Source: a virus (Duplodnaviria > Caudoviricetes). From it: DNA of 64,000 nt. A program made the translations under genes and the position numbers. Position 1 is the first letter of the stretch, and every line of letters starts with the position of its first letter. Shown one piece after another: positions 21,483-35,307 of the stretch. The notes below the pieces were generated by a model. It was not told the origin of the DNA, did not search any database, and saw nothing but the letters and a program-made list of their open reading frames with translations. The stretch spans positions 11,340 through 75,339 of IMG/VR virus record IMGVR_UViG_2627853630_000004. One strand, 5' to 3'.

Positions 21483-21733
21483 TTGGTCTTGCCTCGTTTT
21501 TGGTCGTGATATTCGCGCCAGTAATTTAAGCGCGCTCTAAAATGTTCCCGATACTGCTCCGCTACCGTGTCCAGCTCTTTTTCAACGTTCCGGCGCAGGG
21601 CTTTTCCTGCTATGAGTTGATTTATTAACTGGTTGGCGCGCAGGTCTAGCCATTCCATATCCCTGAATTCCTGCGGCCACTCACCACGGTTATGAGGCAG
21701 TCCGGGCGGCAGGTAATCTGATTGCCCGGACAT
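21479..21733 (-). CDS. Hypothetical phage protein
   Basis: 84-aa ORF, GAGG SD, closely packed in the pR operon. Confidence 0.7.
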   Translation of the reverse strand: MSGQSDYLPPGLPHNRGEWPQEFRDMEWLDLRANQLINQLIAGKALRRNVEKELDTVAEQYREHFRARLNYWREYHDQKRGKTK

Positions 21734-21736
21734 GGG

Positions 21737-22123
21737 TTATGCCTCTATGGGTTTTATCGTGTCGAGAAGAAGACGGGCGCGAGTCGGACCACCAGCGCGG
21801 GTGCCAGTGTCCTTGTAATAAAACTCGCCAGTGCCAACCACCCACGTAGTCGGGGTTTCACGTAATTTAACCGTGCGTTCCCCGCCCACACGGACAACGG
21901 TTCCCGTGTGGGTTTTCTTTGTTGTCAGCCGTTTCTTACCTGACGTTTTCGGGAGTGGGGAAAATTTCGGCGCAACAACTTGCCGCGGCGCGGGAGCTGG
22001 CACGTACGGTGAGCGTGTGCGAGCGCGGGCGTTTGCGTTCATAGCCCAAAGAATTGGGCCGGTGTGGTCGCAGCCGTCATCGGTCATGAATGCGCGTGCG
22101 TAAATAACATCAGTTGTAATCAT
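21737..22123 (-). CDS. Hypothetical basic phage protein
   Basis: 128-aa ORF starting at GAGGCAAGACCATG. Confidence 0.7.
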   Translation of the reverse strand: MITTDVIYARAFMTDDGCDHTGPILWAMNANARARTRSPYVPAPAPRQVVAPKFSPLPKTSGKKRLTTKKTHTGTVVRVGGERTVKLRETPTTWVVGTGEFYYKDTGTRAGGPTRARLLLDTIKPIEA

Positions 22124-22169
22124 GGTCTTGCCTCTTTTTTTGGTCGGTTAAGCGCTGGTCAGGCGCGGT

Positions 22170-23582
22170 TTAAAATTCTTCAATCGGTTGTTTCTTGCTG
22201 TATCGCCTGTCTTTCTCCTGCCCTTTCTCTGCCAGCGATCGAGCCTCATTCGTTGGGATATTCTTGATATATCCATCAATCATCTGTGCGTACGCTGTTC
22301 CGCTCGGCCCCTCACGATTCAGTCGCACAATGAGTTCCATTAGGGTTTTATCCGCCTGCTCGTTGTAGACAGCGTCACGGTATAGCCCGATCCAAACATC
22401 ACAATCCTGTTCGATCTGGCCGGTGTCTTTACTGTCTGAGGGCTGTGGCCGTTTGTCCGCGCGCTCTTCCAGTTTTCGGTTTAACTGCGTCAGCAGCAGC
22501 ACGATGCAATCCAATTCTTTAGCCAGATTTTTTAAGCCGGTTGTTATCGCGCCGTAACTGATGTCGCGGCGTTCCGCTTCCTCGCCTTTCATCAGTGTTA
22601 GGTAGTCCACAGCGACTAAACCAACGTGCCCCCGCTGACGTTTAACTTTTCTGCTCTCTGCTACGATATGGGCAAGTGACACGCCCGGCGTACTGTCGAT
22701 CATCAGATTTGATTCGGACAGTTCAGCGGCTTTAGCCATTGCCAGCGCCATTTTTGAATCGTCGTATTCGCCGTTGTAAAACAGGTTTGAACTGATGAGC
22801 GCCTCTTGTGCGATCATTCGTTCAATAATCCCCCTGTCAGTCATTTCAAGGCTGAAAACCAGCGACGGGAGGCGATGATTTAATGCGAAATGCGTAGCGA
22901 TTTTGTTGTATGTCGCGGTCTTACCCATTTTCGGGCGTGCCCCAACCACGATGAGTGAGCCACGCAACGCTTGCTTAGGTGCCATGATTTCATCCAGCCC
23001 CTCAATGCCGAGCGTCAAGCCAGCTCCACCCGCAGGATCACTAAATCGGCGCTCAATCTCATCAACCCAATCGCCAACGACATCAGTCGCAGGCCGCAAC
23101 CCTCCCCTACGTCCAGTGCTGGCATGATCGACAACAGCGGTGATCATTTGCTGCACGCTGCTTAATCGGCTTTCGACTGTAGCGCCGCCGCTGGAGCTGA
23201 CGATCTCAATGCATGAGTAGAGTTTTTCCAGCGTATAGCGCAGCACTGCTTTTTCACGCACGATGCGAGCGTATGCGAGTGTGTTTGCAGCTACTGGCAC
23301 CCGTGCCATTTCAGCCAGATATGCCATTCCCCCAACGGTCACCAATTCACCGTTTGATTCGAGTAATTCACTCAGGGTTATCAGGTCGGTCGGCTTTTCA
23401 GATCGCGACAGTTCAACCAGACGACGATAAATAATTTGATGTGCGCGCAGATAAAACGACTCAGCTTTCAGCAGGGACATCACAGCATGGCGGCGCTCAT
23501 CGTCAGTATTCAGCATCAACCCGCCGATAACGGCCTGCTCTGCTGATGAGCTGTGCGGAACAACAGGAATATCATTGGTCAT
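22170..23582 (-). CDS. dnaB: Replicative DNA helicase (DnaB family)
   Basis: AEQAVIGGL, GARPKMGKT, FSLEM, VDYL, QLNR, QIEQDCD. Confidence 0.95.
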   Translation of the reverse strand: MTNDIPVVPHSSSAEQAVIGGLMLNTDDERRHAVMSLLKAESFYLRAHQIIYRRLVELSRSEKPTDLITLSELLESNGELVTVGGMAYLAEMARVPVAANTLAYARIVREKAVLRYTLEKLYSCIEIVSSSGGATVESRLSSVQQMITAVVDHASTGRRGGLRPATDVVGDWVDEIERRFSDPAGGAGLTLGIEGLDEIMAPKQALRGSLIVVGARPKMGKTATYNKIATHFALNHRLPSLVFSLEMTDRGIIERMIAQEALISSNLFYNGEYDDSKMALAMAKAAELSESNLMIDSTPGVSLAHIVAESRKVKRQRGHVGLVAVDYLTLMKGEEAERRDISYGAITTGLKNLAKELDCIVLLLTQLNRKLEERADKRPQPSDSKDTGQIEQDCDVWIGLYRDAVYNEQADKTLMELIVRLNREGPSGTAYAQMIDGYIKNIPTNEARSLAEKGQEKDRRYSKKQPIEEF

Positions 23583-24342
23583 TAGCGCGCTCCTCTTTCA
23601 CGGCGACATAGCAACGCTCAGTAACCAGGTAATCGATGTTTTTGCGTTTCCAGAATCCACCCCGCCCATTAGATCGGTCTTCCATCATCCAGCGGCAATG
23701 CACGGAGATATATTTCAAATAGGCCTGCCAACGCTCAGGAGTGAACTGGAATTTTTTCCAGAACGCTCGGATCGTTTTTTTTCTCGCGTCAGTCAAAATC
23801 TGAACGCGTGGCATGTCTGGAAGGGTTTCGTGGTACACATCCAGAATTTTTTGATAATCAATTTTTTCAGCTGGCGGATTATCTGCTGGTGGAGCAGGCT
23901 CGCCTGATTCACCAATAACAGGTTCATTGACTGGTTCAGAAGGGTGACTGGTTCTGGTGCCATCTGACGCCACAGGGGGTGTGCTTTCTGGTGGTACAGG
24001 TGGGTTTTCTGGTGACTCACCTGTGTTTTCTGACACCACAGGGGCTGTGATTTTTGGTGGCACAGGGTTATCGAGCGTCAGATAGTAAACGTTCGACGTG
24101 TTCCCCTTCCCATTATTCTCACCGAGCCTGTTTTCTTTTGACAGAAAACCCATTTTTATCAATGCGGTGATGTGTGCTTTAACGGCACTTTTGCTGCACT
24201 CGCACTGATCCGCAACATGCTGATATGACGGCCAGCACTCACCTTTGTCATTCGCGTTATCGGCCAGCTTAATGAGAACCAGCTTTCGCAGTGGGTTACC
24301 GACTTTGCGGCTCATGGCTTTTGCCATTAGGTTCATGCTCAC
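23572..24342 (-). CDS. Replication initiator (lambda O-like, N-terminal HTH)
   Basis: KLVLIKLADNANDKGECWPSYQHVADQCE; internal iteron-encoded linker; upstream of DnaB. Confidence 0.85.
   Translation of the reverse strand: MSMNLMAKAMSRKVGNPLRKLVLIKLADNANDKGECWPSYQHVADQCECSKSAVKAHITALIKMGFLSKENRLGENNGKGNTSNVYYLTLDNPVPPKITAPVVSENTGESPENPPVPPESTPPVASDGTRTSHPSEPVNEPVIGESGEPAPPADNPPAEKIDYQKILDVYHETLPDMPRVQILTDARKKTIRAFWKKFQFTPERWQAYLKYISVHCRWMMEDRSNGRGGFWKRKNIDYLVTERCYVAVKEERANDQ
23841..24070. other. Probable replication origin: iterons plus AT-rich tract inside the initiator gene
   Basis: Degenerate repeats about 21-24 bp apart (GTGCTTTCTGGTGGTACAGG, GGGTTTTCTGGTGACTCACC, GTGTTTTCTGACACCACAGG, GTGATTTTTGGTGGCACAGG) at about 23950-24070; AT-rich 23845-23868. 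Confidence 0.65.
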
Positions 24343-24343
24343 G

Positions 24344-24571
24344 CTACACCCCCAGCGATTCCGCTAACTGACGGCACGCATCCTGATATTCGTCCGGCGA
24401 TAGATTCATCTCACGCAATTCCGATTTGCGCTGTTCGTATTGCTCCCATACAGAGAGCGCTTCAGCCCTGCGGCCATCAAAGACAGGTTCAATATCACTG
24501 ACGCTGGCTGGTTCGCCATTCAGCAAAAAGCCGTTCCTGTACGTGATTCGAATTCGGATCCTGGTGTGCAT
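24344..24571 (-). CDS. Hypothetical phage protein; start reassigned to ATG 24571
   Basis: GAGGCAAGACCAATG SD-start; MHTRIRIRITYRNGFLLNGEP. Confidence 0.65.
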   Translation of the reverse strand: MHTRIRIRITYRNGFLLNGEPASVSDIEPVFDGRRAEALSVWEQYEQRKSELREMNLSPDEYQDACRQLAESLGV

Positions 24572-24593
24572 TGGTCTTGCCTCGCTATGCAAC

Positions 24594-25046
24594 TTATGCA
24601 ACTAACTGCTGAGTAACTGGCAACAGCGCATACATCGCCTCTGTCGCTTTATTTATTCGTTGTGACATGTCACAGCATCCGAGCAGCACAGCATTCATCG
24701 CTGTGGAAAATTCACGGATGGCCACTGCCGTCAGGTAGTTAACAGATCGGTCATTCTGCAAACGTGCCCGTCGTTCCCCCGGTAGAGCTGCAAGCATCAC
24801 CGGAGCCAGCAACTGGACTTTTCTCTGTGCTGCGCGTGAGTCACTACGCAACCAGCGGAAAATCTGCTGCCTGTTGTTATTTATCGATTTCCAGTCAGCA
24901 ACGCCGCGCTGCTCGATTTCATGCAGCCGGATATGTGGATCGCCACCAGCCAGAAAAAATCGTTTGGTTATCTCGATCGCTACAGTTTCCTGTCCTGCAT
25001 CAACCGCCCATGATTCGATCTCGTTCTTCAGCTCCTGAATATTCAT
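24594..25046 (-). CDS. YdaT-family CII-equivalent transcription factor
   Basis: Follows cro; NNNRQQIFRWL motif; YdaT-type TTGATT-N6-AATCA site directly upstream. Confidence 0.7.
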   Translation of the reverse strand: MNIQELKNEIESWAVDAGQETVAIEITKRFFLAGGDPHIRLHEIEQRGVADWKSINNNRQQIFRWLRSDSRAAQRKVQLLAPVMLAALPGERRARLQNDRSVNYLTAVAIREFSTAMNAVLLGCCDMSQRINKATEAMYALLPVTQQLVA

Positions 25047-25064
25047 TGCGTCTCCTGTCGCAAA

Positions 25065-25082
25065 TTGATTTTTGATAATCAG
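25065..25082. promoter_or_regulatory. YdaT-type operator (pRE-equivalent position)
   Basis: TTGATT-TTTGAT-AATCAG matches the TTGATT-N6-AATCAA repeat recognised by CP-933P YdaT. Confidence 0.7.
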
Positions 25083-25101
25083 ATTTACGCTGATATATCC
25101 G

Positions 25102-25296
25102 TCATTGTTTTCGGTACAGTTCCGGGTTGAATTTGAGTTCTCCGTTAGTTCTGATAGCGGCTTCTGTGGCTCGGCCTTTTGGGATTAGTTTTCCCTCTCG
25201 GGTTCGCCACTGATAAATAGCCTCAGTACTCACTTCAAAGAACTGAGCAACCTTCTCAACTGTTCCGAAATACTCTTCAATTTCGGTTGTAGTCAT
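25102..25296 (-). CDS. cro: Cro-like regulator (YdaS/DicC type)
   Basis: YFGTVEKVAQFFEVSTEAIYQW HTH; divergent from cI. Confidence 0.85.
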   Translation of the reverse strand: MTTTEIEEYFGTVEKVAQFFEVSTEAIYQWRTREGKLIPKGRATEAAIRTNGELKFNPELYRKQ

Positions 25297-25311
25297 TACG
25301 CCTCCCGTTAA

Positions 25312-25374
25312 CTAAGTTTGATTAGACATTAACACCTAATCAAACTTAGATCAACGAGTGCTAAGATAAGTTAG
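25312..25374. promoter_or_regulatory. Right operator: three CTAA-N6-TTAG sites with pR
   Basis: CTAAGTTTGATTAG (25312), CTAATCAAACTTAG (25336), CTAAGATAAGTTAG (25361); minus-strand TTGATC-17-TAATGT. Confidence 0.75.
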
Positions 25375-25384
25375 TTATTTTTAT

Positions 25385-26020
25385 TTGGTGCGCATGATGG
25401 AATCTGTAGGGCAACGAATTAAGCGATTACGAAAAATGACAAAAACGTCTCAAAAGGATTTGGGGCGCTACTGTGGTGTCTCTGATGTTGCTGTTGGTTA
25501 TTGGGAAAAAGACATTAACTCACCCAGTGGGGAGCCCGTTTCCAAGCTAGCCAAATTCTTTAACACCAGCGTTGACTACATTTTGTATGGCACGAAGTTT
25601 GAGGGTGAGTTGATCACTAGCGTTCGCAGGGTTCCAGTTCTTTCGTGGGTACAAGCTGGGTTATTCACTGAATCAACATCGGACCTTATTGATGATTCAA
25701 CCGAGTGGATTGAAACCGCAGCACCGCTATCAGGGCGAGCATTTGCATTACAGGTTCGTGGGGATTCAATGACTAACCCTAACGGGCTTCCCTCAATACC
25801 TGAAGGGGCGATTGTATTTGTTGATCCAGAGGTGGTGGCAGAAAGCGGGCGGATCGTCGTAGCGCGACTCAATGGCACATCAGAAGCCACTATTAAAAAA
25901 CTTGTTATAGATGGCCCAACAAAATTACTCGTTCCCCTAAACCCTCGCTACCCCACACTAACGATCAATGGTAATTGCATCATCATTGGCGTAGTTAAAA
26001 GCGTTCAGTACACTCTTTAA
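25385..26020 (+). CDS. cI: CI repressor, HTH plus S24 autopeptidase (start probably ATG 25394 or 25397)
   Basis: HTH; VQAG cleavage site; GDSM catalytic Ser; TIKKL catalytic Lys. Confidence 0.95.
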   Translation: MVRMMESVGQRIKRLRKMTKTSQKDLGRYCGVSDVAVGYWEKDINSPSGEPVSKLAKFFNTSVDYILYGTKFEGELITSVRRVPVLSWVQAGLFTESTSDLIDDSTEWIETAAPLSGRAFALQVRGDSMTNPNGLPSIPEGAIVFVDPEVVAESGRIVVARLNGTSEATIKKLVIDGPTKLLVPLNPRYPTLTINGNCIIIGVVKSVQYTL

Positions 26021-26051
26021 CCCTCCCTCAGCATAAGCGAAAAACCGATAA

Positions 26052-26102
26052 CTAAGTTTAATTCGGTTTTTTGTTGACATAAAATCTAAGTTAAATTAGA
26101 TT
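26052..26102 (+). promoter_or_regulatory. pL promoter with left operators
   Basis: TTGACA (26074)-17 bp-TAGATT (26097); operators CTAAGTTTAATTCG (26052) and CTAAGTTAAATTAG (26086). Confidence 0.8.
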
Positions 26103-26114
26103 AAATCCATCAAC

Positions 26115-26178
26115 AGCGAACAGGCAGGACGCCCACGAAGTAGCCGCTACCGGCGTATGAACAGGTAGATGATTCGCT
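26115..26178 (+). ncRNA. Structured RNA at the 5' end of the pL transcript
   Basis: Closing stem AGCGAA/TTCGCT enclosing a CTACC/GGTAG hairpin; non-coding. Confidence 0.4.
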
Positions 26179-26304
26179 AAGTAAGGCAAGACCAACCCAC
26201 GCCGCAGACCACGCTCTATGAGTGGCGACGTGGGAAAACAACCAGGCGCAGTTGCGCTGTTTGGGTAACACGTTCTGACAGCGGGAAAGACCGCAAATTA
26301 ATTC

Positions 26305-26380
26305 GGCCCCTTAGCTCAGCGGTTAGAGCTATCCCCTCATAAGGGATTGGTCACTGGTTCAAATCCAGTAGGGGTCACCA
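26305..26380 (+). tRNA. tRNA-Ile2 (CAU anticodon, ileX-like, lysidine type)
   Basis: 76-nt cloverleaf: GGCCCCT/AGGGGTC acceptor, ATCCC-CTCATAA-GGGAT anticodon arm, TTCAAAT T-loop, encoded CCA. Confidence 0.9.
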
Positions 26381-26383
26381 AAT

Positions 26384-26442
26384 TAGCGATCAGGTGATTA
26401 ACGGGTTTCCCTGCTCGTTACCCGGTTCGACTCCGGGCGCTA
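26384..26442 (+). ncRNA. Degenerate tRNA-like element
   Basis: TAGCG/CGCTA acceptor-like stem, perfect T-arm CCCGG-TTCGACT-CCGGG, TAACGGG/CTCGTTA stem; minimal D-arm; no CCA. Confidence 0.5.
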
Positions 26443-26477
26443 TTCGAAATCACGTTGCCATCGTGATAACTGCGAGA

Positions 26478-26536
26478 GGTGTGTAGTCATTGGGCGGTGT
26501 GGGTTTTTGATCTTTCCCCTATCCGCCAATTTTTTT
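26478..26536 (+). ncRNA. DicF-like small RNA or terminator hairpin
   Basis: TTGGGCGG...CCGCCAA stem with a pyrimidine-rich loop and T7 tail in the leftward early leader. Confidence 0.4.
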
Positions 26537-26694
26537 CGCAGACGTAAAAAAGCCCGCCTTGCGGCAGGCTTAGTTACCTCGGATAACCGACCAAAGTATT
26601 TCCGAGAGGTTTGCGGCGCTTACCAGGCGCCGCAAGGCAAGACCAATACCAACTAACGCTGATACTGATCAGCCGTGATTATACGAGGAACGCT

Positions 26695-26988
26695 ATGAAA
26701 GCGCCAGATATCACAACCACGCTGTACCTCCATCTCAACGCATTTACATCTGAACCGTTAATTTGCACATGTGACATGTCACATTTTGGTCATGCGTTAA
26801 TTTCAACGTGTGAAGTCTCCGTGCCATTTCCTGAAATAACCCCCGAATACCTTGCAGAACGCAAGATGTCAGCGTTACGGGAACAGCAACAAAAAATTCT
26901 CTCTGACGCTCAAATCAAGGCGAATGAACTGGAAGACCAGGTTCAGAAATTGCTGTGCGTTGAGCGCCAGAACAGCACCATTAAGTGA
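26695..26988 (+). CDS. Hypothetical early protein
   Basis: GAGGA SD before ATG 26695; coiled-coil C-terminus. Confidence 0.7.
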   Translation: MKAPDITTTLYLHLNAFTSEPLICTCDMSHFGHALISTCEVSVPFPEITPEYLAERKMSALREQQQKILSDAQIKANELEDQVQKLLCVERQNSTIK

Positions 26989-26998
26989 GGGTGAAGAC

Positions 26999-27283
26999 GT
27001 GGGTGATGTAGGTGATTACTACAGGGACTTAAAGCCGTACTTGAAGGAGCAGCGTCGAAAAGCACGAGATGGTGCATATGGGCGTATCAAAGCGTTCTTT
27101 GTTAGAAATGGTGTTCAGTTGGAAGAAGGAAATAACACACTAATTTTCCGCACACCACAAGGCACTGTTTGCTACTACCCACCAAGCCAGAGGATGCAGC
27201 ACAAGCAATTATGGAAAGAATGCAGCCCGACCAGCTGCATGAACTATGTGAAAAAACTAAGAACTGAGAGGCAAGACCAATGA
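26999..27283 (+). CDS. Hypothetical early protein (GTG start)
   Basis: GAGGG SD before GTG 26999; stop overlaps the next ATG. Confidence 0.65.
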   Translation: MGDVGDYYRDLKPYLKEQRRKARDGAYGRIKAFFVRNGVQLEEGNNTLIFRTPQGTVCYYPPSQRMQHKQLWKECSPTSCMNYVKKLRTERQDQ

Positions 27284-29463
27284 CAACAGCAACATTTACC
27301 GCTGCTTTCTTTCCAAAGAAATCAGCTCAAAAAAATGGCGCGATACCGCTAGCAACAGCGATCGAAGCAAAAAGCAAAAAACTGGCAGAAATGGCAGCAG
27401 TTATGCTGCTGGAAGAAACATTCCCTGGTGCCAGTGATAACTTCTTTAAACCAACCATCACCGAGGATTCGATCGGTTCACCCCGTCCAGCCGTTGGAAC
27501 GTTCGATGAGACATTCCTACAGGAAAATGAGCTGGTAGAGGGCGTCTGGCGGCGCATCGAGGCACCGACTCAGCCTAACGATCTCGTCGATTTCTCCACC
27601 CTCTCTTTGCGTGAAAAAATCGCGGCGTTTGCGTTGTATGCGCAATCTGAAATCACCGAGCATGAATTCTCTATGGTGTGTGATTATCTCGATCTGCCGG
27701 ATTTCGATGGCGATGGGGATACTAACGCAGACACGGACAAACTGATCCGCATACTCAGCGGTATTGAATTGTTGGAACAGGCTACTGACGAATTGCTACT
27801 CAGCGTAGTAAATGCCGTTAACGCTCGGTTCCCATCTATCGCAGATGTTGCGGATCGTGAAATTCTGGCCTTTGTTGATACGTTAACATGCGCGCCCGGC
27901 GAAAATGACACGCAAGCGACAAAGCCGCTGATCGCTGGATTGGATCGTGAACGCCAGTACACGCATACGCATCGAACATTAAACCGAGAAGTCGCCCTGT
28001 TCCTGGCTAACGACAACATCACAGATCCGTGGGAAGTAACAGAAGAACAGAAGGTTGCGGGTGATCAGGTGATGAAAAGCGGTGGTGACACGTATTCACG
28101 ATGGTCAACCGAGTTGAGTATGGTTGAGGGCGCGTTAAAAATCCCCCGCCCCATAGTTTTCATCTTGATAAATGAGGCCAAGAAACGCCCTGAATTATTG
28201 CTAGATGCAAACGCGCGTCAGCGGTTCGTTGTTGATTTTCTGGCTGAGCACACACCATCAGAAATCAAAGTTGAAAGCATGGGCAGCGGACGATTCTCTA
28301 TTGATGGCCTGATGGGTGAAACCGCATCAAATCAGGGAGAAAAAACGGAAGTGGTCAGCACGCCTGAGGCTGAAACAAAACAGACTGAAGCCGTTAACCC
28401 GCCAGCAGAAACCATTACGCAGCAGGCCAGCACCGAAGCTGGTGAGCAGATCATTAGCGACGGCACAGTGCAGCAGGCAAAAGAAGCGCTCGATCAGCTG
28501 GGGTACGGCGTTTACGCGACAGAAACGGACGCACCAGCACCAGCACCAGCACCAGCAGACGATTTTCAGCAAAGAGCTGAAGCCATTGAAGCCGAGATCG
28601 CCAAAAAACCAGACGCGGCACGCGGCAATCTATCTATTTGGCAGGGTGTCCAGAGAACCAACCCTGCGCACACAAGGCGGAAAGAAACATGGAAGTGGGT
28701 TAACGGAAAACAAGAGCTATTGCGCGCAGTCACTAGCGTCAACCCTACGTACCAAATAATGAGAGCCACAGAAGTATTTGGACCGTTCGGGTTAGGTTGG
28801 GGGGTGGAAGTTACAGAGGAGCGATTCGATCCCGGATTACCACTAATGGAGCCAGTCTTTGATAGCTCAGGGAGAGAGATAAACCGAAAACCCATGCGTG
28901 ATGGTGATGGATCACTTGTCAGGGCGCTAAACCACACAATGCAAATACGATTATGGTACGTGCTGGATGGTGTGCGCGGAGAGTTTCCCGCTTTCGGGCA
29001 TACGAAATATCTCTATGCAAAGAATAGTGGTGGCATGGTGTGTGACGATGAAGTCGGTAAAAAAAGCCTGACAGATGCCATCACAAAAGGGCTGTCAGCG
29101 CTTGGCTTTAGCGCCGATATCTACATGGGCATGTTTGATGATGACGAATATAAGAATAAAAACGAAGCGGAATTCGGCATCAAAAACGCAAGTGACAAAG
29201 CCGAAGACGTGGTGCGTTTTCGCTCTGAGCTGGATGAGAAATTCACACGGAACGCGGCAACGATGGAGACGACAGTCAGCGTCAATGAACTCAATAAGGT
29301 GTTTGGAGTTCTCGTACGTGAGATCGAAACACATCGTAAAGATGCAGAGGCAAAAGGTGATACAGAATACGCAAAATATCTATCTAGTCGTCTGCGTCGC
29401 CTTACTGAAATAAAAAGCGAGCGTGAAAAAGCACTCAAGGCCACTGAAGGGGAAAAAGCATGA
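27280..29463 (+). CDS. Recombination protein: RecE/ExoVIII-like N-terminal region fused to a Rad52/Sak-like annealing domain
   Basis: N-terminal KKSAQKNG and FFKP..TED as in RecE N-termini; C-terminal YQIMRATEVFGPFGLGWG and KKSLTDAITKGLSALGFSADIYMG. Confidence 0.65.
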   Translation: MTTATFTAAFFPKKSAQKNGAIPLATAIEAKSKKLAEMAAVMLLEETFPGASDNFFKPTITEDSIGSPRPAVGTFDETFLQENELVEGVWRRIEAPTQPNDLVDFSTLSLREKIAAFALYAQSEITEHEFSMVCDYLDLPDFDGDGDTNADTDKLIRILSGIELLEQATDELLLSVVNAVNARFPSIADVADREILAFVDTLTCAPGENDTQATKPLIAGLDRERQYTHTHRTLNREVALFLANDNITDPWEVTEEQKVAGDQVMKSGGDTYSRWSTELSMVEGALKIPRPIVFILINEAKKRPELLLDANARQRFVVDFLAEHTPSEIKVESMGSGRFSIDGLMGETASNQGEKTEVVSTPEAETKQTEAVNPPAETITQQASTEAGEQIISDGTVQQAKEALDQLGYGVYATETDAPAPAPAPADDFQQRAEAIEAEIAKKPDAARGNLSIWQGVQRTNPAHTRRKETWKWVNGKQELLRAVTSVNPTYQIMRATEVFGPFGLGWGVEVTEERFDPGLPLMEPVFDSSGREINRKPMRDGDGSLVRALNHTMQIRLWYVLDGVRGEFPAFGHTKYLYAKNSGGMVCDDEVGKKSLTDAITKGLSALGFSADIYMGMFDDDEYKNKNEAEFGIKNASDKAEDVVRFRSELDEKFTRNAATMETTVSVNELNKVFGVLVREIETHRKDAEAKGDTEYAKYLSSRLRRLTEIKSEREKALKATEGEKA

Positions 29464-30041
29464 GCAGAATTCACCACAACACGGCAATAGCAATTGCCGC
29501 TGATATGTCAAAGCTCCAAAGCCTACTGGAAGATTCTGAGGGTGGTATTGGAGAATTAACGCCAGAAATGATCGAAGACACAATGTCCGGTCTGGAAATG
29601 ACGCTGGCGGATAAATTAGATTCCGTTCTGGTTCACGTTAGAAACCTGGAAGGTCAAGAGGAAACCTGCGACAAAGAAATTAAGCGCCTAAGTGATCGTA
29701 AAAAATCATTCCGCAACCAGGCAAAGCATCTGAAGCAATACATTTTAAATTGCCTGCTGGCGGCCAATCTCGACAAAATCAAAACAACAAAGAACACATT
29801 TACTGCGCGAAAAGGCGTGGTAAATGTGGTTATCGATAATGAATCACTTGTGCCTGACGAATTCGTTAACTTACAGACAATCATAACGCCAGACAAGAAA
29901 GCCATTAAGGAGGCCATAGAATCCGCAGAGGCGGCGGTCGTGGAAATCACCGCGCGTGGCGAAACCCCTCCGGCTGAGTTGTTAAATCCGGTACCCGGTG
30001 CGCACATTGAAATCGGTGCGCGTTCTCTGCAAGTGCGGTAA
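29460..30041 (+). CDS. Siphovirus Gp157 (Mu Gam-like) family protein
   Basis: EIKRLSDRKKS, DKKAIKEAI, VPGAHIE..RSLQVR. Confidence 0.8.
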   Translation: MSRIHHNTAIAIAADMSKLQSLLEDSEGGIGELTPEMIEDTMSGLEMTLADKLDSVLVHVRNLEGQEETCDKEIKRLSDRKKSFRNQAKHLKQYILNCLLAANLDKIKTTKNTFTARKGVVNVVIDNESLVPDEFVNLQTIITPDKKAIKEAIESAEAAVVEITARGETPPAELLNPVPGAHIEIGARSLQVR

Positions 30042-30076
30042 CGGCTGACCACCGTATAGCAAGCGAGGCAAGACCA

Positions 30077-30253
30077 ATGCTAAAAATGAGCGCGCAGCGC
30101 GGGGACGTTATTCATATTGTTTTTGCTGATGGCCGGAATGGAATGATCGCAGTTCAATCACGCAGTGTGCTGGCGATTCATTTTCCGCCAGATGTGAAAA
30201 TAACGCGTGAACGTCGCCAGCAGGAAAAACTGATTAACGATAATCAGAAATAA
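30077..30253 (+). CDS. CsrA/RsmA-fold RNA-binding protein, 58 aa (not in ORF track)
   Basis: MLKMSAQRGDVIHIVFADGRNGMIAVQSRSVLAIHFPPDVKITRERRQQEKLINDNQK; M1, L2, G9, I14, P37, V40, R44, E45 match E. coli CsrA without gaps; GAGG SD. Confidence 0.75.
   Translation: MLKMSAQRGDVIHIVFADGRNGMIAVQSRSVLAIHFPPDVKITRERRQQEKLINDNQK
30230..30247. promoter_or_regulatory. Second YdaT-type operator (pI-equivalent position)
   Basis: CTGATT-AACGAT-AATCAG upstream of the small ORF, xis and int. Confidence 0.6.
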
Positions 30254-30300
30254 CCCGCCATTAGCAATACCGTGTGACCTCCATTTTACAGGGGGTCACA

Positions 30301-30507
30301 ATGCAAGTATGGAAACCGGGCAAGTGCCTGTTATCTGAGTTCGATATTAAAATCGGTCGGCTGTCTGCAAGCGTAAGGAAGACCACTCTAACGCAACAGG
30401 ATATAGACCAGTCTTGTGCAGCAGCCGACGCAATCATTGATAAATTAAGGCAAGACCATGACCGACCTGTTAACCGACGACGAGCTAATAGAACTGACAG
30501 GCTATAA
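30301..30507 (+). CDS. Hypothetical small protein
   Basis: AGGGGG SD before ATG 30301; MQVWKPGKCLLSEFDIKIGRLSASVRK. Confidence 0.6.
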   Translation: MQVWKPGKCLLSEFDIKIGRLSASVRKTTLTQQDIDQSCAAADAIIDKLRQDHDRPVNRRRANRTDRL

Positions 30508-30673
30508 GTATGCGTCGAAGCAACGCGCCGCTCTAACCCGATCCGGCATTTCGTTTATCACCCGTAGGGATGGGCGACCCAGCGTCACATGGGCGGCAAT
30601 TAATGCCAGCCTATCCACTGTGAAAGCTGAGCAATTTAAAGACGTTGAACAGCCTAATTTTGATGCGATTTAA
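30458..30673 (+). CDS. xis: Excisionase (DUF4224 family)
   Basis: LLTDDELIELTGYK..SKQ..L...GI.F..RRDGRP; EQPNFDAI; directly before int. Confidence 0.8.
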   Translation: MTDLLTDDELIELTGYKYASKQRAALTRSGISFITRRDGRPSVTWAAINASLSTVKAEQFKDVEQPNFDAI

Positions 30674-30675
30674 TC

Positions 30676-31701
30676 ATGGCTCGTAAACGTAAAGATCCCC
30701 GCGATAACGCATTACCGCCACGCGTATATCGCGGGAAAAGTAAATATGAATTCCACCCGATTGGTGGCGGCTCTATTTCACTATGCCCTCTCGATTCCCC
30801 CATTCCACTAATCTGGGAGAAATACGACGCGGCAAATAATTATCGCGAGGAAAAATTTACTCTGGAACGAATGGCCGGGCGATTTATGCAATCACCAGAC
30901 TTCCTCGATCTCGCGAGTGAAACACAAAAGGACTACCGGAAATACTCTGCGAAAATAATTCCAGTTTTTGGGGGGATGTCGCCGGATTCGATTAAACCTG
31001 AACACATCAGGAAATACATGGATAAACGGGGCGTGAAAAGCAAGACGCAGGCGAACAGAGAAAAGGCGTTTCTTTCGCGAGTATTTCGGTGGGGATACGA
31101 GCGGGGGCTATGTAAAGGCAACCCATGCAAGGGCGTTAAACAGTTCAAAGAGGTGGCGCGAGATCGTTACGTGACTGATGACGAGTATAACGCCCTGTAC
31201 TCCGTCGCAGCTCCATTTGTCCAGGTGGCTATGGAAATAGCCTATCTGTGTCTCTCACGGCAGGGGGATGTTCTCTCGCTGACTGAGGGGCAAATATTAG
31301 ATCAGGGGATTTTTATCGCTCAGGGAAAAACGGGCGCAAAACAAATCAAGGCATGGACGGACAGGCTGAGAGCCGCTGTAACAAATGCACGTAACTTGCC
31401 AATAAAACCGGGCATCAGCAGTATGTACATAATCCATCAACCGACCGGAGGGCGCTACACTCGCGACGGATTCAACAGCCGCTGGCAGCAAGCCAAAGAA
31501 GATGCGGCCACGGCGTTCCCACACTTGAGCTTTGATTTCACTTTTCACGATCTCAAGGCTAAAGGGGTTTCAGATCTCGATGGGACGTTAGCAGAAAAAC
31601 AGGCAATATCGGGACACATGACAATCAGCCAGACAGCACGATACGACCGAAAGATACCGATCGTTCCTGTTGTGGGTGGTCAGAATAAAAATTCAAAATA
31701 A
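30676..31701 (+). CDS. int: Tyrosine integrase of prophage 1
   Basis: RQGDVL, KTG, FHDLKAK, SGH and RY catalytic motifs; next to the tRNA fragment. Confidence 0.95.
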   Translation: MARKRKDPRDNALPPRVYRGKSKYEFHPIGGGSISLCPLDSPIPLIWEKYDAANNYREEKFTLERMAGRFMQSPDFLDLASETQKDYRKYSAKIIPVFGGMSPDSIKPEHIRKYMDKRGVKSKTQANREKAFLSRVFRWGYERGLCKGNPCKGVKQFKEVARDRYVTDDEYNALYSVAAPFVQVAMEIAYLCLSRQGDVLSLTEGQILDQGIFIAQGKTGAKQIKAWTDRLRAAVTNARNLPIKPGISSMYIIHQPTGGRYTRDGFNSRWQQAKEDAATAFPHLSFDFTFHDLKAKGVSDLDGTLAEKQAISGHMTISQTARYDRKIPIVPVVGGQNKNSK

Positions 31702-34268: not shown

Positions 34269-34871
34269 TCAATGCGCCAACAGCATCCCCAGCACGATCC
34301 CTGCCGCAAGCACTGCGCCAAAAATCCGTGGTTCTGCTTTTAAAGTATTTACCGCATCTTGCCACGTCTGTACTTTTGGGGGGGGTGTGTTGGTGGTAGT
34401 TCTACCCTGCCGCTCATCCAACCACCCCATAGCCTGCTGAAGCTGGGGGCGGGCTAAATCATTTAACCGACTGGTTCCAAAATTGATGTGGCAGAACCGT
34501 GTAAGCTGTTCGCGTAATTCGTTTTGCTCTGTGCTTCTTAATAACTGAGACACTAGTTTTTTATTAGCATCCCTTTCCCTGCTACGCTCATGTAGCGCAT
34601 TCAGGAAACTTAGCGCTGTGGAATACTGGCTGATGGTGATTTCTTCAATACCGTTAACACCAAGCTCCGCATGTAAGCGACGCCAAACAAAACGCACATC
34701 TTCACGCCCTGCTTCCGCAATATCTTTCACCAACTGGTTTAATTGGGAACGCTGGGCGCTAACCAATGGGCGCAAATCTTCTTTAGTTTGTGGGGCGGCA
34801 ATATTGATATTTTTTTCGTAATAATCACGTCCTGCGACCCGATTACTATCCCCTTGAGCCTCTACGGTCAT
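34269..34871 (-). CDS. C-terminally membrane-anchored helical protein (Flk-like repeats)
   Basis: RPLVSAQRSQL, VWRRLHAELGV, C-terminal IFGAVLAAGIVLGMLLA TM segment. Confidence 0.65.
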   Translation of the reverse strand: MTVEAQGDSNRVAGRDYYEKNINIAAPQTKEDLRPLVSAQRSQLNQLVKDIAEAGREDVRFVWRRLHAELGVNGIEEITISQYSTALSFLNALHERSRERDANKKLVSQLLRSTEQNELREQLTRFCHINFGTSRLNDLARPQLQQAMGWLDERQGRTTTNTPPPKVQTWQDAVNTLKAEPRIFGAVLAAGIVLGMLLAH

Positions 34872-34893
34872 CCATTACATCCTTGATGCTTCG

Positions 34894-35307
34894 CTACTTC
34901 TTGCCTTCGTGATAGTCCCTGCCCGCTACGCGTTGGCCGCTACCCGTTACGTTTATCGATGCTGTTGCAGAGCTACCCGCCGTCAAAGCGGCTAAGGCGG
35001 CGGCTTTTATCGCCAGTGGCGCAGAACGATAGATTTTGATCAGTTCTAATTCGTCATTAGAAATGTCACCAAGGTCAGGGGTTCTTTTTCCAGTGAGGAT
35101 ATACAAAGTATCCATGCCGTAATTTTCACTAAGAAAAGCAAGCGTTGCACCATCAGGCGCAGTTTCGCCACGCTCGTATTTTCCCCAAGTCCTTGTTGTC
35201 GTGCCTAATTCTTCTGCAATTGCACTCTGACTTTTACCAATCGTTTCCCGCTCTTCGCGCAAACGCCCACCAATAAGGAATAAAAATTCCTCTTTCGAAG
35301 TTGACAT
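34894..35307 (-). CDS. Immunity repressor (XRE HTH, no peptidase domain)
   Basis: RLREERETIGKSQSAIAEELG...YERGETAPD; divergent from the early operon. Confidence 0.85.
   Translation of the reverse strand: MSTSKEEFLFLIGGRLREERETIGKSQSAIAEELGTTTRTWGKYERGETAPDGATLAFLSENYGMDTLYILTGKRTPDLGDISNDELELIKIYRSAPLAIKAAALAALTAGSSATASINVTGSGQRVAGRDYHEGKK

What the first reader, a model, noticed from the sequence alone, without database searches (positions are those of the whole stretch)
30041..30253. Unannotated phage-encoded CsrA/RsmA homologue with predicted altered specificity and autoregulation
Seen: a 58-aa ORF below the ORF-track cutoff. It aligns without gaps to E. coli CsrA at M1, L2, G9, I14, P37, V40, R44 and E45, with the beta-strand hydrophobic pattern and a C-terminal helix. 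Established: R44 and strands beta1/beta5 form the CsrA RNA-binding surface. Seen: neighbouring residues differ (I3K, L4M, T5S, R6A, R7Q, H43T). Its own leader has a CTGACCA-loop hairpin and the AGGCAAGACCA RBS. Inference: an autoregulated translational regulator recognising GACCA, forming with the motif set and decoy cluster a self-contained phage Csr system. It might also heterodimerise with host RsmA, a virulence regulator in soft-rot bacteria, if the host is one.
Basis: partly seen in the sequence, partly recalled or inferred. Interest (0 to 1): 0.93.

Follow-up and report, generated by a model that had tools for sequence, protein, structure and literature searches.

The report
Possible diverged CsrA-like phage early protein
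A real, conserved 58-residue early gene of a ZF40-like Pectobacterium prophage may be a very distant relative of the RNA-binding regulator CsrA, but the link is indirect and its proposed targets and self-regulation are untested.

Summary
The ORF at 30077-30253 (+) is real. It belongs to PHROG 2482 (E 2.7e-27) and is the homologue of ZF40 gp05, which is annotated as hypothetical. It is under purifying selection (dN/dS 0.05-0.09). It keeps its place between a Gp157/Gam-like gene and a 64-76-aa ORF, xis and int in Enterobacterales prophages.

It fails every direct CsrA test:
- no Pfam PF02599 hit, and no hit to the four PHROG families that the host CsrA hits;
- no BLASTP alignment to host CsrA;
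- hhalign against canonical CsrA gives 0.9-1.9% probability;
- no CsrA chain in PDB sequence searches or among the listed fold matches.

The family profile does match annotated Bcep22-type phage 'CsrA-like regulators' (hhalign 69-82%, P 1e-5 to 4e-5; 0 of 350 shuffled controls reach the score). Those regulators match CsrA at 96-97%. The signal needs the broad profile; small subsets lose it.

The GAGGMAAGACCA start-associated motif is real. A second GACCA lies upstream at 6 of 8 sites, and the motif travels with the gene family. No result links protein to motif.

I put CsrA-like ancestry or fold at about 50%, and the full 'private Csr system' at about 25%. The predicted C-terminal helix, a stable leader hairpin and heterodimerisation with RsmA have no support. 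The scan reached a similar reading earlier on other DNA (e1-5357458).

The parts
30077..30253 (+). 58-aa ORF (stop included), PHROG 2482 / ZF40 gp05 family. Basic: pI 10.4, net charge +4.
   Evidence: AF2 predicts five beta strands.
30065..30076 (+). GAGGCAAGACCA: Shine-Dalgarno sequence plus conserved spacer (start-associated motif), directly before the ATG.
30041..30055 (+). ACGG-CTGACCA-CCGT: a second GACCA, 19 nt upstream of the AGG that opens the motif, flanked by a 4-bp inverted repeat.
   Evidence: The fold is not better than shuffles.
29460..30041 (+). Upstream gene: Gp157 / Mu Gam-like end-protection protein, 193 aa.
   Evidence: PF05565, 2.5e-35; phrog_253.
30301..30507 (+). Conserved 68-aa neighbour (phrog_27062, function unknown). 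It overlaps the xis start.
   Evidence: Present downstream in relatives.
30458..30673 (+). Excisionase (DUF4224), preceded by AAGGCAAGACCATG.
30676..31701 (+). Tyrosine integrase; end of the early-left operon.
26074..26102 (+). Promoter-like site (TTGACA-17-TAGATT) after the cI-like repressor gene. Inferred start of the operon that holds the ORF.
   Evidence: A consensus match only.

Best explanation
The ORF encodes a small, basic, five-stranded beta protein. It is made from the early-left (pL-like) operon of a ZF40-like temperate phage, next to the Gam-like, xis and int genes. The family (PHROG 2482) is most likely a very diverged offshoot of the phage 'CsrA-like regulator' lineage.

By analogy it would act as a dimer that binds single-stranded RNA at or near ribosome-binding sites and tunes translation of phage early mRNAs. 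The obvious candidate target is the bipartite element found at early gene starts: an upstream GACCA plus GAGGMAAGACCA directly before the ATG.

Shown:
- the gene is real, conserved and under selection;
- the motif is real, bipartite and travels with the family;
- there is a profile-level link to Bcep22-type CsrA-like proteins.

Inferred only:
- the CsrA-type fold and a dimer;
- RNA binding, the target and the direction of regulation;
- any effect on host RsmA.
For: Gene reality:
- phrog_2482 at E 2.7e-27.
- 71 relatives, all from Enterobacterales where a source names the organism.
- dN/dS 0.05-0.09 in the informative pairs.
- Fixed place after the Gam-like gene in the 9 loci that have upstream flank, of 10 loci, and in a divergent locus.

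Link to CsrA:
- hhalign of the family profile against 9 annotated Bcep22-type 'CsrA-like regulators': A5 gives 73.4%, P 3e-5, over columns 1-48. Rerun locally, A5 gives 69.4%, A4 gives 82.1% (P 1e-5), and the 24-sequence main group gives 77.9%.
- Nulls: 0 of 200 column permutations (max 21.3) and 0 of 150 block shuffles (max 24.7) reach 27.9; the reversed profile scores 10.7.
- The same Bcep22-type set matches canonical CsrA at 96.6-96.9%.
- Bcep22 gp54 alone matches CsrA at 95.9% and the family at 47.6%, P 1.9e-4.
- CsrA is the only Pfam family hit by more than one member, 4 of 19, all below threshold.
- The nearest Pfam-bearing Atlas cluster is a CsrA cluster for both proteins tried, the window protein (0.85, 191 features) and a divergent member (0.82, 182 features). 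These are leads only.
- Predicted strands lie at 2-6, 11-15, 21-25, 30-34 and 41-45.

Target candidate:
- 8 exact GGCAAGACCA copies, all on the sense strand; 6 of 8 lie directly before an ATG.
- A second GACCA lies within 50 nt upstream at 6 of 8 sites (binomial P 3e-8 to 1e-6), and at 23 of 35 sites in relatives.
- Of 56 IMG/VR loci with 2 or more motif copies, 27 hold the family inside the locus, against 1 of 63 single-copy loci.
- 5 of the 29 motif-rich loci without a hit were searched as whole records. The two that are 85-87% complete hold the family; the three that are about 50% complete do not.
Against: Direct tests against CsrA fail:
- No Pfam CsrA hit at E<=10 for the window protein, and none in a six-frame scan of the whole 75-kb provirus.
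- 0 of 6 divergent members hit.
- No hit to phrog_9500, 5527, 31572 or 8397, which the host CsrA does hit.
- No BLASTP alignment to host CsrA at E<=100.
- hhalign against canonical CsrA gives 1.2%, 1.9% and 0.9%. 7 of 150 column permutations do as well.
- A CsrA HMM scores the window protein at 2.1 bits; 64 of 3050 shuffles reach that.

The Bcep22-type link is fragile:
- It disappears for small subsets: Pectobacterium group 1.1%, divergent groups 0.8%, window protein alone 3.6%.
- A P of 1e-5 would not survive a database-wide search.

CsrA-like positions are not family-wide:
- The divergent subgroups lose G9-D10, R44-E45 and the C-terminal NQK, yet keep PDG, DRRC and FP, which CsrA lacks.
- The family's strongest marks, I53 and N56 in a C-terminal LIxxNQK tail, have no CsrA counterpart.

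Other signals:
- Profile searches of PDB sequences find no CsrA chain at E<=10. They find a Staphylococcus Bap C-repeat instead (6m3a_A, E 0.0093, residues 10-42).
- The motif precedes this gene in only 4 of 12 of the first set of homologues, though also in 5 of the 7 divergent members looked at, with near-variants before two more (L086, L025).
- Co-occurrence of motif and gene is also what common descent alone would give.
Confidence: 0.45

Rival explanations
1. The protein is an orphan small beta protein unrelated to CsrA. It would be an accessory factor of the early-left recombination and excision module, binding a protein or DNA partner (for example the Gam-like protein, or a host factor) through its conserved beta-hairpin turns and the C-terminal LIxxNQK tail. 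Its likeness to CsrA-like proteins would then be convergence between short all-beta proteins.
For: - All direct CsrA tests fail.
- The family-wide conserved positions (PDG turn, R29, FP, C-terminal I53/N56) are not CsrA features.
- The gene always follows the Gam-like gene. In 3 loci it starts 1-5 nt after that gene's stop, with no Shine-Dalgarno sequence or motif of its own, which suggests coupled translation.
- It stays in place while the xis and int types change.
- The best PDB sequence match is a Bap C-repeat beta hairpin region (E 0.0093 for the single-repeat chain).
Against: - The hhalign link to Bcep22-type CsrA-like proteins (69-82%) beats 350 of 350 shuffled controls and runs in register from residue 1 to 48.
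- CsrA is the only recurrent weak Pfam and Atlas family.
- Nothing here shows a partner.
- Bap repeats are extracellular spacer domains of 86 aa, and only 33 residues match.
Confidence: 0.4
2. The protein is an AbrB/MazE/SpoVT-like swapped-hairpin DNA-binding protein that regulates transcription or excision.
For: - One relative carries a UniRef name of this kind (P0198), and one Atlas cluster does too (rank 2, 0.91).
- Weak PDB profile hits to AbrB-family chains at E 0.64-0.86, residues 3-26.
Against: - No AbrB/MazE-type Pfam family was hit by any of 19 members at E<=10.
- The PDB hits cover only the second hairpin of AbrB and vanish with the broader profile.
Confidence: 0.05
3. The start-associated GACCA motifs are read by an RNA, or only by the ribosome, and not by this protein. 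A candidate RNA is a minus-strand transcript that carries the complement of the motif near 26550-26700. The 58-aa protein would then have an unrelated role.
For: - A non-start copy of the motif lies at 26636-26645.
- It sits just upstream, in minus-strand sense, of a strong terminator-like hairpin with a T run at 26571-26550.
- The same non-start copy is kept in relatives.
Against: - No Rfam family matches there.
- No promoter or transcript was shown.
- This reading does not exclude a protein reader.
Confidence: 0.25
4. The ORF is a chance reading frame and is not translated.
For: It is short. No protein-level data were found here.
Against: - Intact in all 10 genome loci and in ZF40, with the same start.
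- 14 synonymous against 6 non-synonymous differences to ZF40, dN/dS 0.09.
- A PHROG family and 71 database relatives exist.
Confidence: 0.01

Closest known systems
Bcep22 gp54-type phage 'CsrA-like regulator' proteins (annotated in Bcep22, DC1, RPZH6, Skulduggery, Itty13, PEp14, Parlo, 8P, LASTA)
   Same: - 60-70 aa, with an N-terminal hydrophobic strand, a G-[DE] turn and '[AF]P..V.I.R' near residue 37-46.
- hhalign gives 69-82% in register over residues 1-48.
- The arginine matching CsrA R44 is likewise not invariant in that set.
- The function of that group is also untested, as far as I saw.
   Different: - Those genes lie beside the major capsid gene where the flank showed it. This one lies in the early-left operon between gam and xis.
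- The middle of the protein differs, with PDG and DRRC, and needs indels to align.
- This family has a conserved LIxxNQK C-terminus.
- Bcep22-type proteins match CsrA directly at 96-97%. This family does not.
CsrA / RsmA / RsmE (Pfam PF02599), including recognisable phage-borne csrA genes
   Same: - Same length.
- Ten identities in a gapless overlay, clustered in the first and last strands.
- Five predicted strands.
- From recall: CsrA binds RNA at ribosome-binding sites as a dimer with two sites. That would suit the bipartite motif.
   Different: - It fails the Pfam, PHROG, BLASTP, hhalign and PDB sequence tests.
- Recognisable phage csrA genes occur in 88 phage records at 45-97% identity to the host protein. 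None is from a Pectobacterium phage.
- No GGA-type specificity can be inferred.
Start-associated sequences (SAS/ESAS) of Cluster K mycobacteriophages (PMC3203893, passages read)
   Same: - A short asymmetric repeat containing the Shine-Dalgarno core, a few bases before start codons (mostly ATG).
- One orientation, and confined to non-structural genes.
- Often accompanied by a second upstream element.
   Different: - Different sequence (GGGATAGGAGCCC there, GAGGMAAGACCA here), different host phylum and different phage lineage.
- Here the upstream element is a short GACCA, not a 17-bp inverted repeat.
Bap C-repeat / Rib-like bacterial Ig-like repeats (PDB 6m3a, 7dm0)
   Same: Gapless 33-residue match of the central 'v.itfPDGt.g.i.ad....l..dfP..V.i' region, E 0.0093 to 5.2e-8. 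Weak Foldseek hits as well.
   Different: Those are 86-aa extracellular repeats of a staphylococcal surface protein. Only part of the repeat matches, each repeat on its own has E 0.014-0.045, and no shared function is plausible.

Membership tests
CsrA (Pfam PF02599) | Sequence scores at or above the family's gathering cut-off (27 bits) | tested here: not met
   - Window protein: no hit at E<=10.
- Whole provirus in six frames: 0 matches, while the controls ring in E. coli, B. subtilis and T. maritima.
- Relatives: 4 of 19 weak hits, best E 0.027. P0011 scores 14.1 bits.
- Divergent members: 0 of 6.
CsrA (Pfam PF02599) | Profile-profile homology to canonical CsrA | tested here: not met
   hhalign gives 1.2%, 1.9% and 0.9%. 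As a positive control, Bcep22-type proteins reach 95.9-96.9%.
CsrA (Pfam PF02599) | Conserved RNA-binding residues of strands 1 and 5 (L2, L4, R6, R7, R44 and neighbours). The list is recalled; their invariance is seen in the 41-sequence CsrA alignment. | tested here: inconclusive
   - L2 and R44 are present in the window protein.
- R44 is R in 57 of 61 members, but it is replaced in the divergent subgroups.
- R6, R7, T5 and H43 are not kept.
CsrA (Pfam PF02599) | Interleaved homodimer of five strands plus a C-terminal helix | tested here: inconclusive
   - Only monomer models could be made (pLDDT 77.7 and 85.3). They show five strands and no helix.
- All structural matches have Z below 5.
CsrA (Pfam PF02599) | Binds GGA-containing RNA and regulates translation | not testable with these tools
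   Needs binding and reporter assays.
Phage CsrA-like PHROGs (9500, 5527, 31572, 8397) | HMM match | tested here: not met
   The window protein, P0011, L022 and L092 hit none of the four CsrA-type PHROGs at E<=1; their only strong hit is phrog_2482. Host CsrA hits all four, from 1.4e-34 to 2.6e-4.
Bcep22 gp54-type 'CsrA-like regulator' | Profile-profile similarity over the whole beta domain | tested here: inconclusive
   69-82% with P 1e-5 to 4e-5, and 0 of 350 shuffles reach the score. Subsets of the family give only 0.8-3.6%.
PHROG 2482 (unknown function; ZF40 gp05) | HMM match over the full length | tested here: met
   E 2.7e-27, residues 1-58 on profile positions 1-61 of 61. 87% DNA identity to ZF40 across the locus.
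Start-associated sequences (SAS-like element) | Asymmetric repeat holding the Shine-Dalgarno core just before start codons, in one orientation, in non-structural genes | tested here: met
   - 8 of 8 copies are on the sense strand and lie within 21484-30458.
- 6 of 8 lie directly before an ATG.
- The motif is kept before the exo gene (all nine loci whose flank reaches it) and before xis (all eight that reach it) in relatives.
- This is likeness of kind, not of sequence.
AbrB/MazE/SpoVT | Match to the family's sequence profile | tested here: not met
   No such Pfam family among the hits of 19 members at E<=10. Only PDB hits at E 0.64-0.86 to half of the domain.

The most novel reading that the evidence does not exclude
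ZF40-like temperate phages of Enterobacterales carry a private post-transcriptional regulon. In it, a stripped-down CsrA-fold dimer (PHROG 2482) has lost GGA specificity and reads a bipartite GACCA ... GAGGMAAGACCA element stamped on the ribosome-binding sites of early genes in both divergent operons, in part including its own. This would give start-associated sequences their first identified reader.
Probability: 0.25. Interest if true: 0.8.

Novelty: new variant of a known kind. Interest (0 to 1): 0.5.

Why it matters
Phage-borne csrA genes are already known; 88 phage records hold a recognisable one. A further copy would therefore be ordinary. This one is different: the protein lies beyond the reach of the family models, sits in the early operon, and travels with a conserved bipartite motif on early ribosome-binding sites.

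If the protein reads that motif, two things would follow. It would show how far the CsrA fold can be re-aimed. It would also give a testable answer to what start-associated sequences are for, which was left open for mycobacteriophages (PMC3203893).

If the protein is unrelated to CsrA, it remains a conserved early protein of unknown function, and the motif still needs a reader.

Tried and rejected
**Structure searches, no support either way**
- The single-sequence AF2 model gave no Foldseek PDB match at E<=0.001; the best was Bap C 7dm0_A at E 0.37.
- The AF2 model from the 19-sequence alignment also gave none; the best was CprK at E 0.37.
- VIA-align wide searches gave a best Z of 4.7 (4h4n_A, rmsd 4.1, 50 aligned) and 4.3 (TRAP 2zcz_A, rmsd 5.3, 53 aligned).
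- The second look gave TRAP 2exs_A at Z 4.5, rmsd 2.4, 47 aligned.
- No CsrA chain was among the rows listed. Because the models are monomers, this says little.
- In BFVD the best match was an uncharacterised 67-aa protein at E 0.021.

**Sequence searches**
- PDB sequence searches with the single protein found nothing at E<=10.
- The large repeat proteins found by the representative search are BNR/sialidase-type repeat proteins. I set them aside as beta-hairpin look-alikes and left them out of all alignments.
- Also left out: P0013, P0171-P0173, P0178, P0199, P0202 and P0205-P0207 (fragments or read-through forms), and P0005 from A2, A4 and A5.

**RNA and expression**
- Rfam found only the tRNA.
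- The circular-shift null for hhalign was uninformative, because local alignment finds the same piece again.
- RNA-seq: four runs from one study (at most two samples) hold contigs 90-95% alike that cover 29991-30460, ORF included. They come from a relative and may be DNA carried in the library, so I do not count them as expression.

**Motif variants**
- I looked for covariation between the motif variant (GAGGC or GAGGA) and protein subgroup. L009 breaks the pattern, so there is no support.

**Literature**
- The ZF40 genome paper (PMC3391216, term search only) has 0 occurrences of gp05, motif, ribosome, Shine or CsrA.
- Search listings showed no title on this family. These two searches do not prove that nothing is in print.
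- PMC13418256 (passages read) concerns chromosomal csrA-tldR loci and is not relevant.
- Supplementary files were not opened.
Full report
**What is there.** The finding's coordinates hold a 58-aa ATG ORF at 30077-30253 on the + strand. It starts 35 nt after the stop of a 193-aa Gp157/Mu Gam-like gene (PF05565, 2.5e-35; phrog_253). Downstream come a 68-aa ORF (phrog_27062), a DUF4224 excisionase and a tyrosine integrase. The window is part of a 75-kb IMG/VR provirus record. This stretch is 87% identical in DNA to Pectobacterium phage ZF40, where the homologue is gp05, a 'hypothetical protein'. A cI-like repressor gene (25385-26020), a cII-like gene, and O-like and DnaB-like replication genes place the ORF about 4 kb into the early-left operon, which seems to start at a promoter-like site at 26074-26102.

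**Is it a gene?** Yes.
- It matches PHROG 2482 over its full length (E 2.7e-27).
- It has close relatives in Pectobacterium (79-93% identity).
- A profile search found 71 relatives. All that carry an organism name are from Enterobacterales, and none has a precomputed Pfam domain.
- Ten genome loci (Pectobacterium, Serratia, Citrobacter, Raoultella, Enterobacter, and one record titled Martelella) hold an intact copy with the same start.
- Against ZF40 there are 14 synonymous and 6 non-synonymous differences. dN/dS is 0.05-0.09 in the informative pairs.
- Gene order is kept: a roughly 700-aa exonuclease-like gene, the Gam-like gene, this gene, a 64-76-aa ORF, xis, int. The order holds even where the xis and int types change, and in a divergent IMG/VR locus that has two extra small ORFs.
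- In three loci the gene starts 1-5 nt after the Gam-like stop.
- The protein is basic: pI 10.4, with a family median of 10.0.

As profiles, the zero-offset overlay of positions 1-46 scores +13.4. The best other offset scores -10.7, and column permutations average -41.5 (sd 12.3; 0 of 20000 reach it). So the overlay is register-specific. But that null destroys strand pattern, and the middle of the protein (residues 15-36) scores negatively.

**Direct tests of CsrA membership all fail.**
- Pfam gives no family at E<=10 for the window protein, and no CsrA match in a six-frame scan of the provirus. The same search rings in E. coli, B. subtilis and T. maritima.
- Among 19 relatives, 4 hit CsrA below threshold (best E 0.027, cut-off 27 bits). 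It is the only family hit by more than one member.
- BLASTP to host CsrA finds nothing at E<=100.
- hhalign of family alignments of 19, 61 and 31 sequences against 41 CsrA sequences gives 1.2%, 1.9% and 0.9%. 7 of 150 column permutations score as well.
- A CsrA HMM gives the window protein 2.1 bits. The family median is 1.3, and 64 of 3050 composition-matched shuffles reach the window's score.
- Host CsrA hits four PHROG families (9500, 5527, 31572, 8397). The window protein and three relatives hit none of those four; their only strong hit is PHROG 2482.
- tblastn of host CsrA finds recognisable csrA genes in 88 phage records, none from Pectobacterium phages.

**Structure.**
- AF2 predicts five strands: at 2-6, 11-15, 21-25, 30-34 and 41-45 with the 19-sequence alignment (pLDDT 85.3, pTM 0.61).
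- It predicts no C-terminal helix.
- No fold search gave a clear match. Foldseek's best is E 0.37, and all VIA-align Z values are below 5. The top rows are TRAP, a Bacillus hypothetical protein, cupin fragments and Ig-like repeats.
- CsrA is an interleaved dimer (recalled), so a monomer model cannot settle the matter.

**A wider view of the family.** A scan of IMG/VR for GAGGMAAGACCAATG brought in more members, including two divergent subgroups. These belong to PHROG 2482 (E 2.4e-20 and 4.3e-16). They lose G9-D10, R44-E45 and, in one subgroup, the C-terminal NQK. They keep M1-L2, P17-D18-G19, R29 (as DRRC) and F36-P37. Within the main group of 61 sequences:
- M1, G9, D10, I53 and N56 are invariant;
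- R44 is R in 57 of 61;
- the C-terminal LIxxNQK is the most distinctive mark.

With the broader profile, the best PDB sequence match is the C-repeat of staphylococcal Bap: 6m3a_A at E 0.0093, and 7dm0_A at 5.2e-8 summed over two repeats, covering residues 10-42 without gaps. No CsrA chain appears at E<=10.

**The indirect link.** Earlier notes of this scan pointed to Bcep22 gp54-type 'CsrA-like regulators'.
- Bcep22 gp54 alone matches the CsrA alignment at 95.9% (P 6e-9) and the 58-aa family at 47.6% (P 1.9e-4).
- An alignment of nine such annotated proteins matches CsrA at 96.6%.
- The same alignment matches the family at 73.4% (P 3e-5, score 27.9), in register from residue 1 to 48. G9-D10 lies on G-E, P37 on the AP proline, and V40, I42 and R44 on V, I and R.
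- Rerun locally: A5 gives 69.4%, the 61-sequence alignment 82.1% (P 1e-5), and the 24-sequence main group 77.9%.
- No control reaches the score: 0 of 200 column permutations (max 21.3), 0 of 150 five-column block shuffles (max 24.7), and 10.7 for the reversed profile.
- The signal depends on profile depth. The Pectobacterium subgroup gives 1.1%, the divergent subgroups 0.8%, and the window protein alone 3.6%.
- These were chosen comparisons. A P of 1e-5 would not be significant across a whole profile library.
- The Atlas feature search names a CsrA cluster as the nearest Pfam-bearing cluster for the window protein (0.85, 191 shared features) and for a divergent member (0.82, 182). Both are below the level at which the tool calls a hit more than a lead.

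**The motif.**
- GGCAAGACCA occurs 8 times exactly in the window. All copies lie between 21484 and 30458 and on the sense strand of the local operon. Six lie directly before an ATG: a 28-aa ORF, a 128-aa ORF, a 75-aa ORF, the 727-aa exo-like gene, this gene and xis.
- Relatives carry GAGGCAAGACCA or GAGGAAAGACCA before exo (all nine loci whose flank reaches it) and before xis (all eight that reach it), and before this gene in 4 of 12 of the first set.
- In the divergent subgroups the motif is also before this gene, in 5 of the 7 looked at, with near-variants before two more (L086, L025).
- A second GACCA lies within 50 nt upstream at 6 of 8 window sites. The chance is 0.03-0.06 per site, so P is 3e-8 to 1e-6. 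In relatives it is there at 23 of 35 sites.
- Three of these second GACCAs sit in C[CT]GACCA between 4-bp inverted repeats. The leader of this gene, however, folds no better than shuffles (z -0.58).
- Of 56 IMG/VR loci with two or more motif copies, 27 hold the family inside the locus, against 1 of 63 single-copy loci, many of which may be chance matches.
- Of five motif-rich records without the family in the locus, the two that are 85-87% complete hold it elsewhere. The three without it are about 50% complete.
- The closest described thing is the start-associated sequences of Cluster K mycobacteriophages, whose reader is unknown (PMC3203893, passages read).

**Verdict.**
The protein cannot be filed as a CsrA family member, since the defining sequence tests were run and not met.
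- A distant link through phage CsrA-like proteins is plausible. I put it near 50%. It would fit a bipartite, RBS-overlapping RNA target.
- Altered specificity, autoregulation, a decoy cluster and interaction with host RsmA remain conjecture.
- The main rival, which I hold almost as likely, is an unrelated small beta protein that serves the Gam/xis neighbourhood through its conserved C-terminal tail.
- An earlier follow-up in this scan on another ZF40-like prophage came to a similar, cautious reading (e1-5357458).

Noticed in passing
window 21484-30458 (8 sites); L001-L011; 56 IMG/VR loci among L016-L134: GAGGMAAGACCA is a start-associated motif of the early genes in both divergent operons. It is conserved across ZF40-like prophages of several Enterobacterales genera. 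A second GACCA lies 6-48 nt upstream at most sites. It resembles mycobacteriophage SAS/ESAS in kind.
   Followed up: partly
window 26305-26380 (+): A tRNA-Met (CAT) gene sits in the leader of the early-left operon, between the promoter-like site and the first protein gene.
   Followed up: no
window 26550-26645: A motif copy with no start codon after it (26636-26645, followed by ATA) lies next to a strong minus-strand terminator-like hairpin with a T run (26571-26550). A minus-strand RNA from here would carry the complement of the motif. The non-start copy is kept in relatives.
   Followed up: partly
window 26770-26783; L022, L113, L081, L025 just upstream of the family member: The perfect palindrome TGTGACATGTCACA lies inside the phrog_2479 gene of the window. 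It, or a core of it, lies directly before the motif and start of the divergent 55-56-aa homologues. It could be an operator-like site or a conserved coding end.
   Followed up: no
window 30301-30507 (+): The 68-aa ORF (phrog_27062, no Pfam family) is as constant a neighbour as the 58-aa gene, and its end overlaps the xis start. The two small proteins may work together.
   Followed up: no
window 30077-30253, residues 52-58: The C-terminal LIxxNQK tail is among the most conserved parts of the main family group (I53 and N56 invariant in 61 sequences). No likeness to a known motif was found.
   Followed up: partly
window 32021-64000: Beyond the integrase the window continues with many further long ORFs on both strands. 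Earlier notes mention a repressor at 34269-35307. This may be a second mobile element, but I did not annotate it.
   Followed up: no
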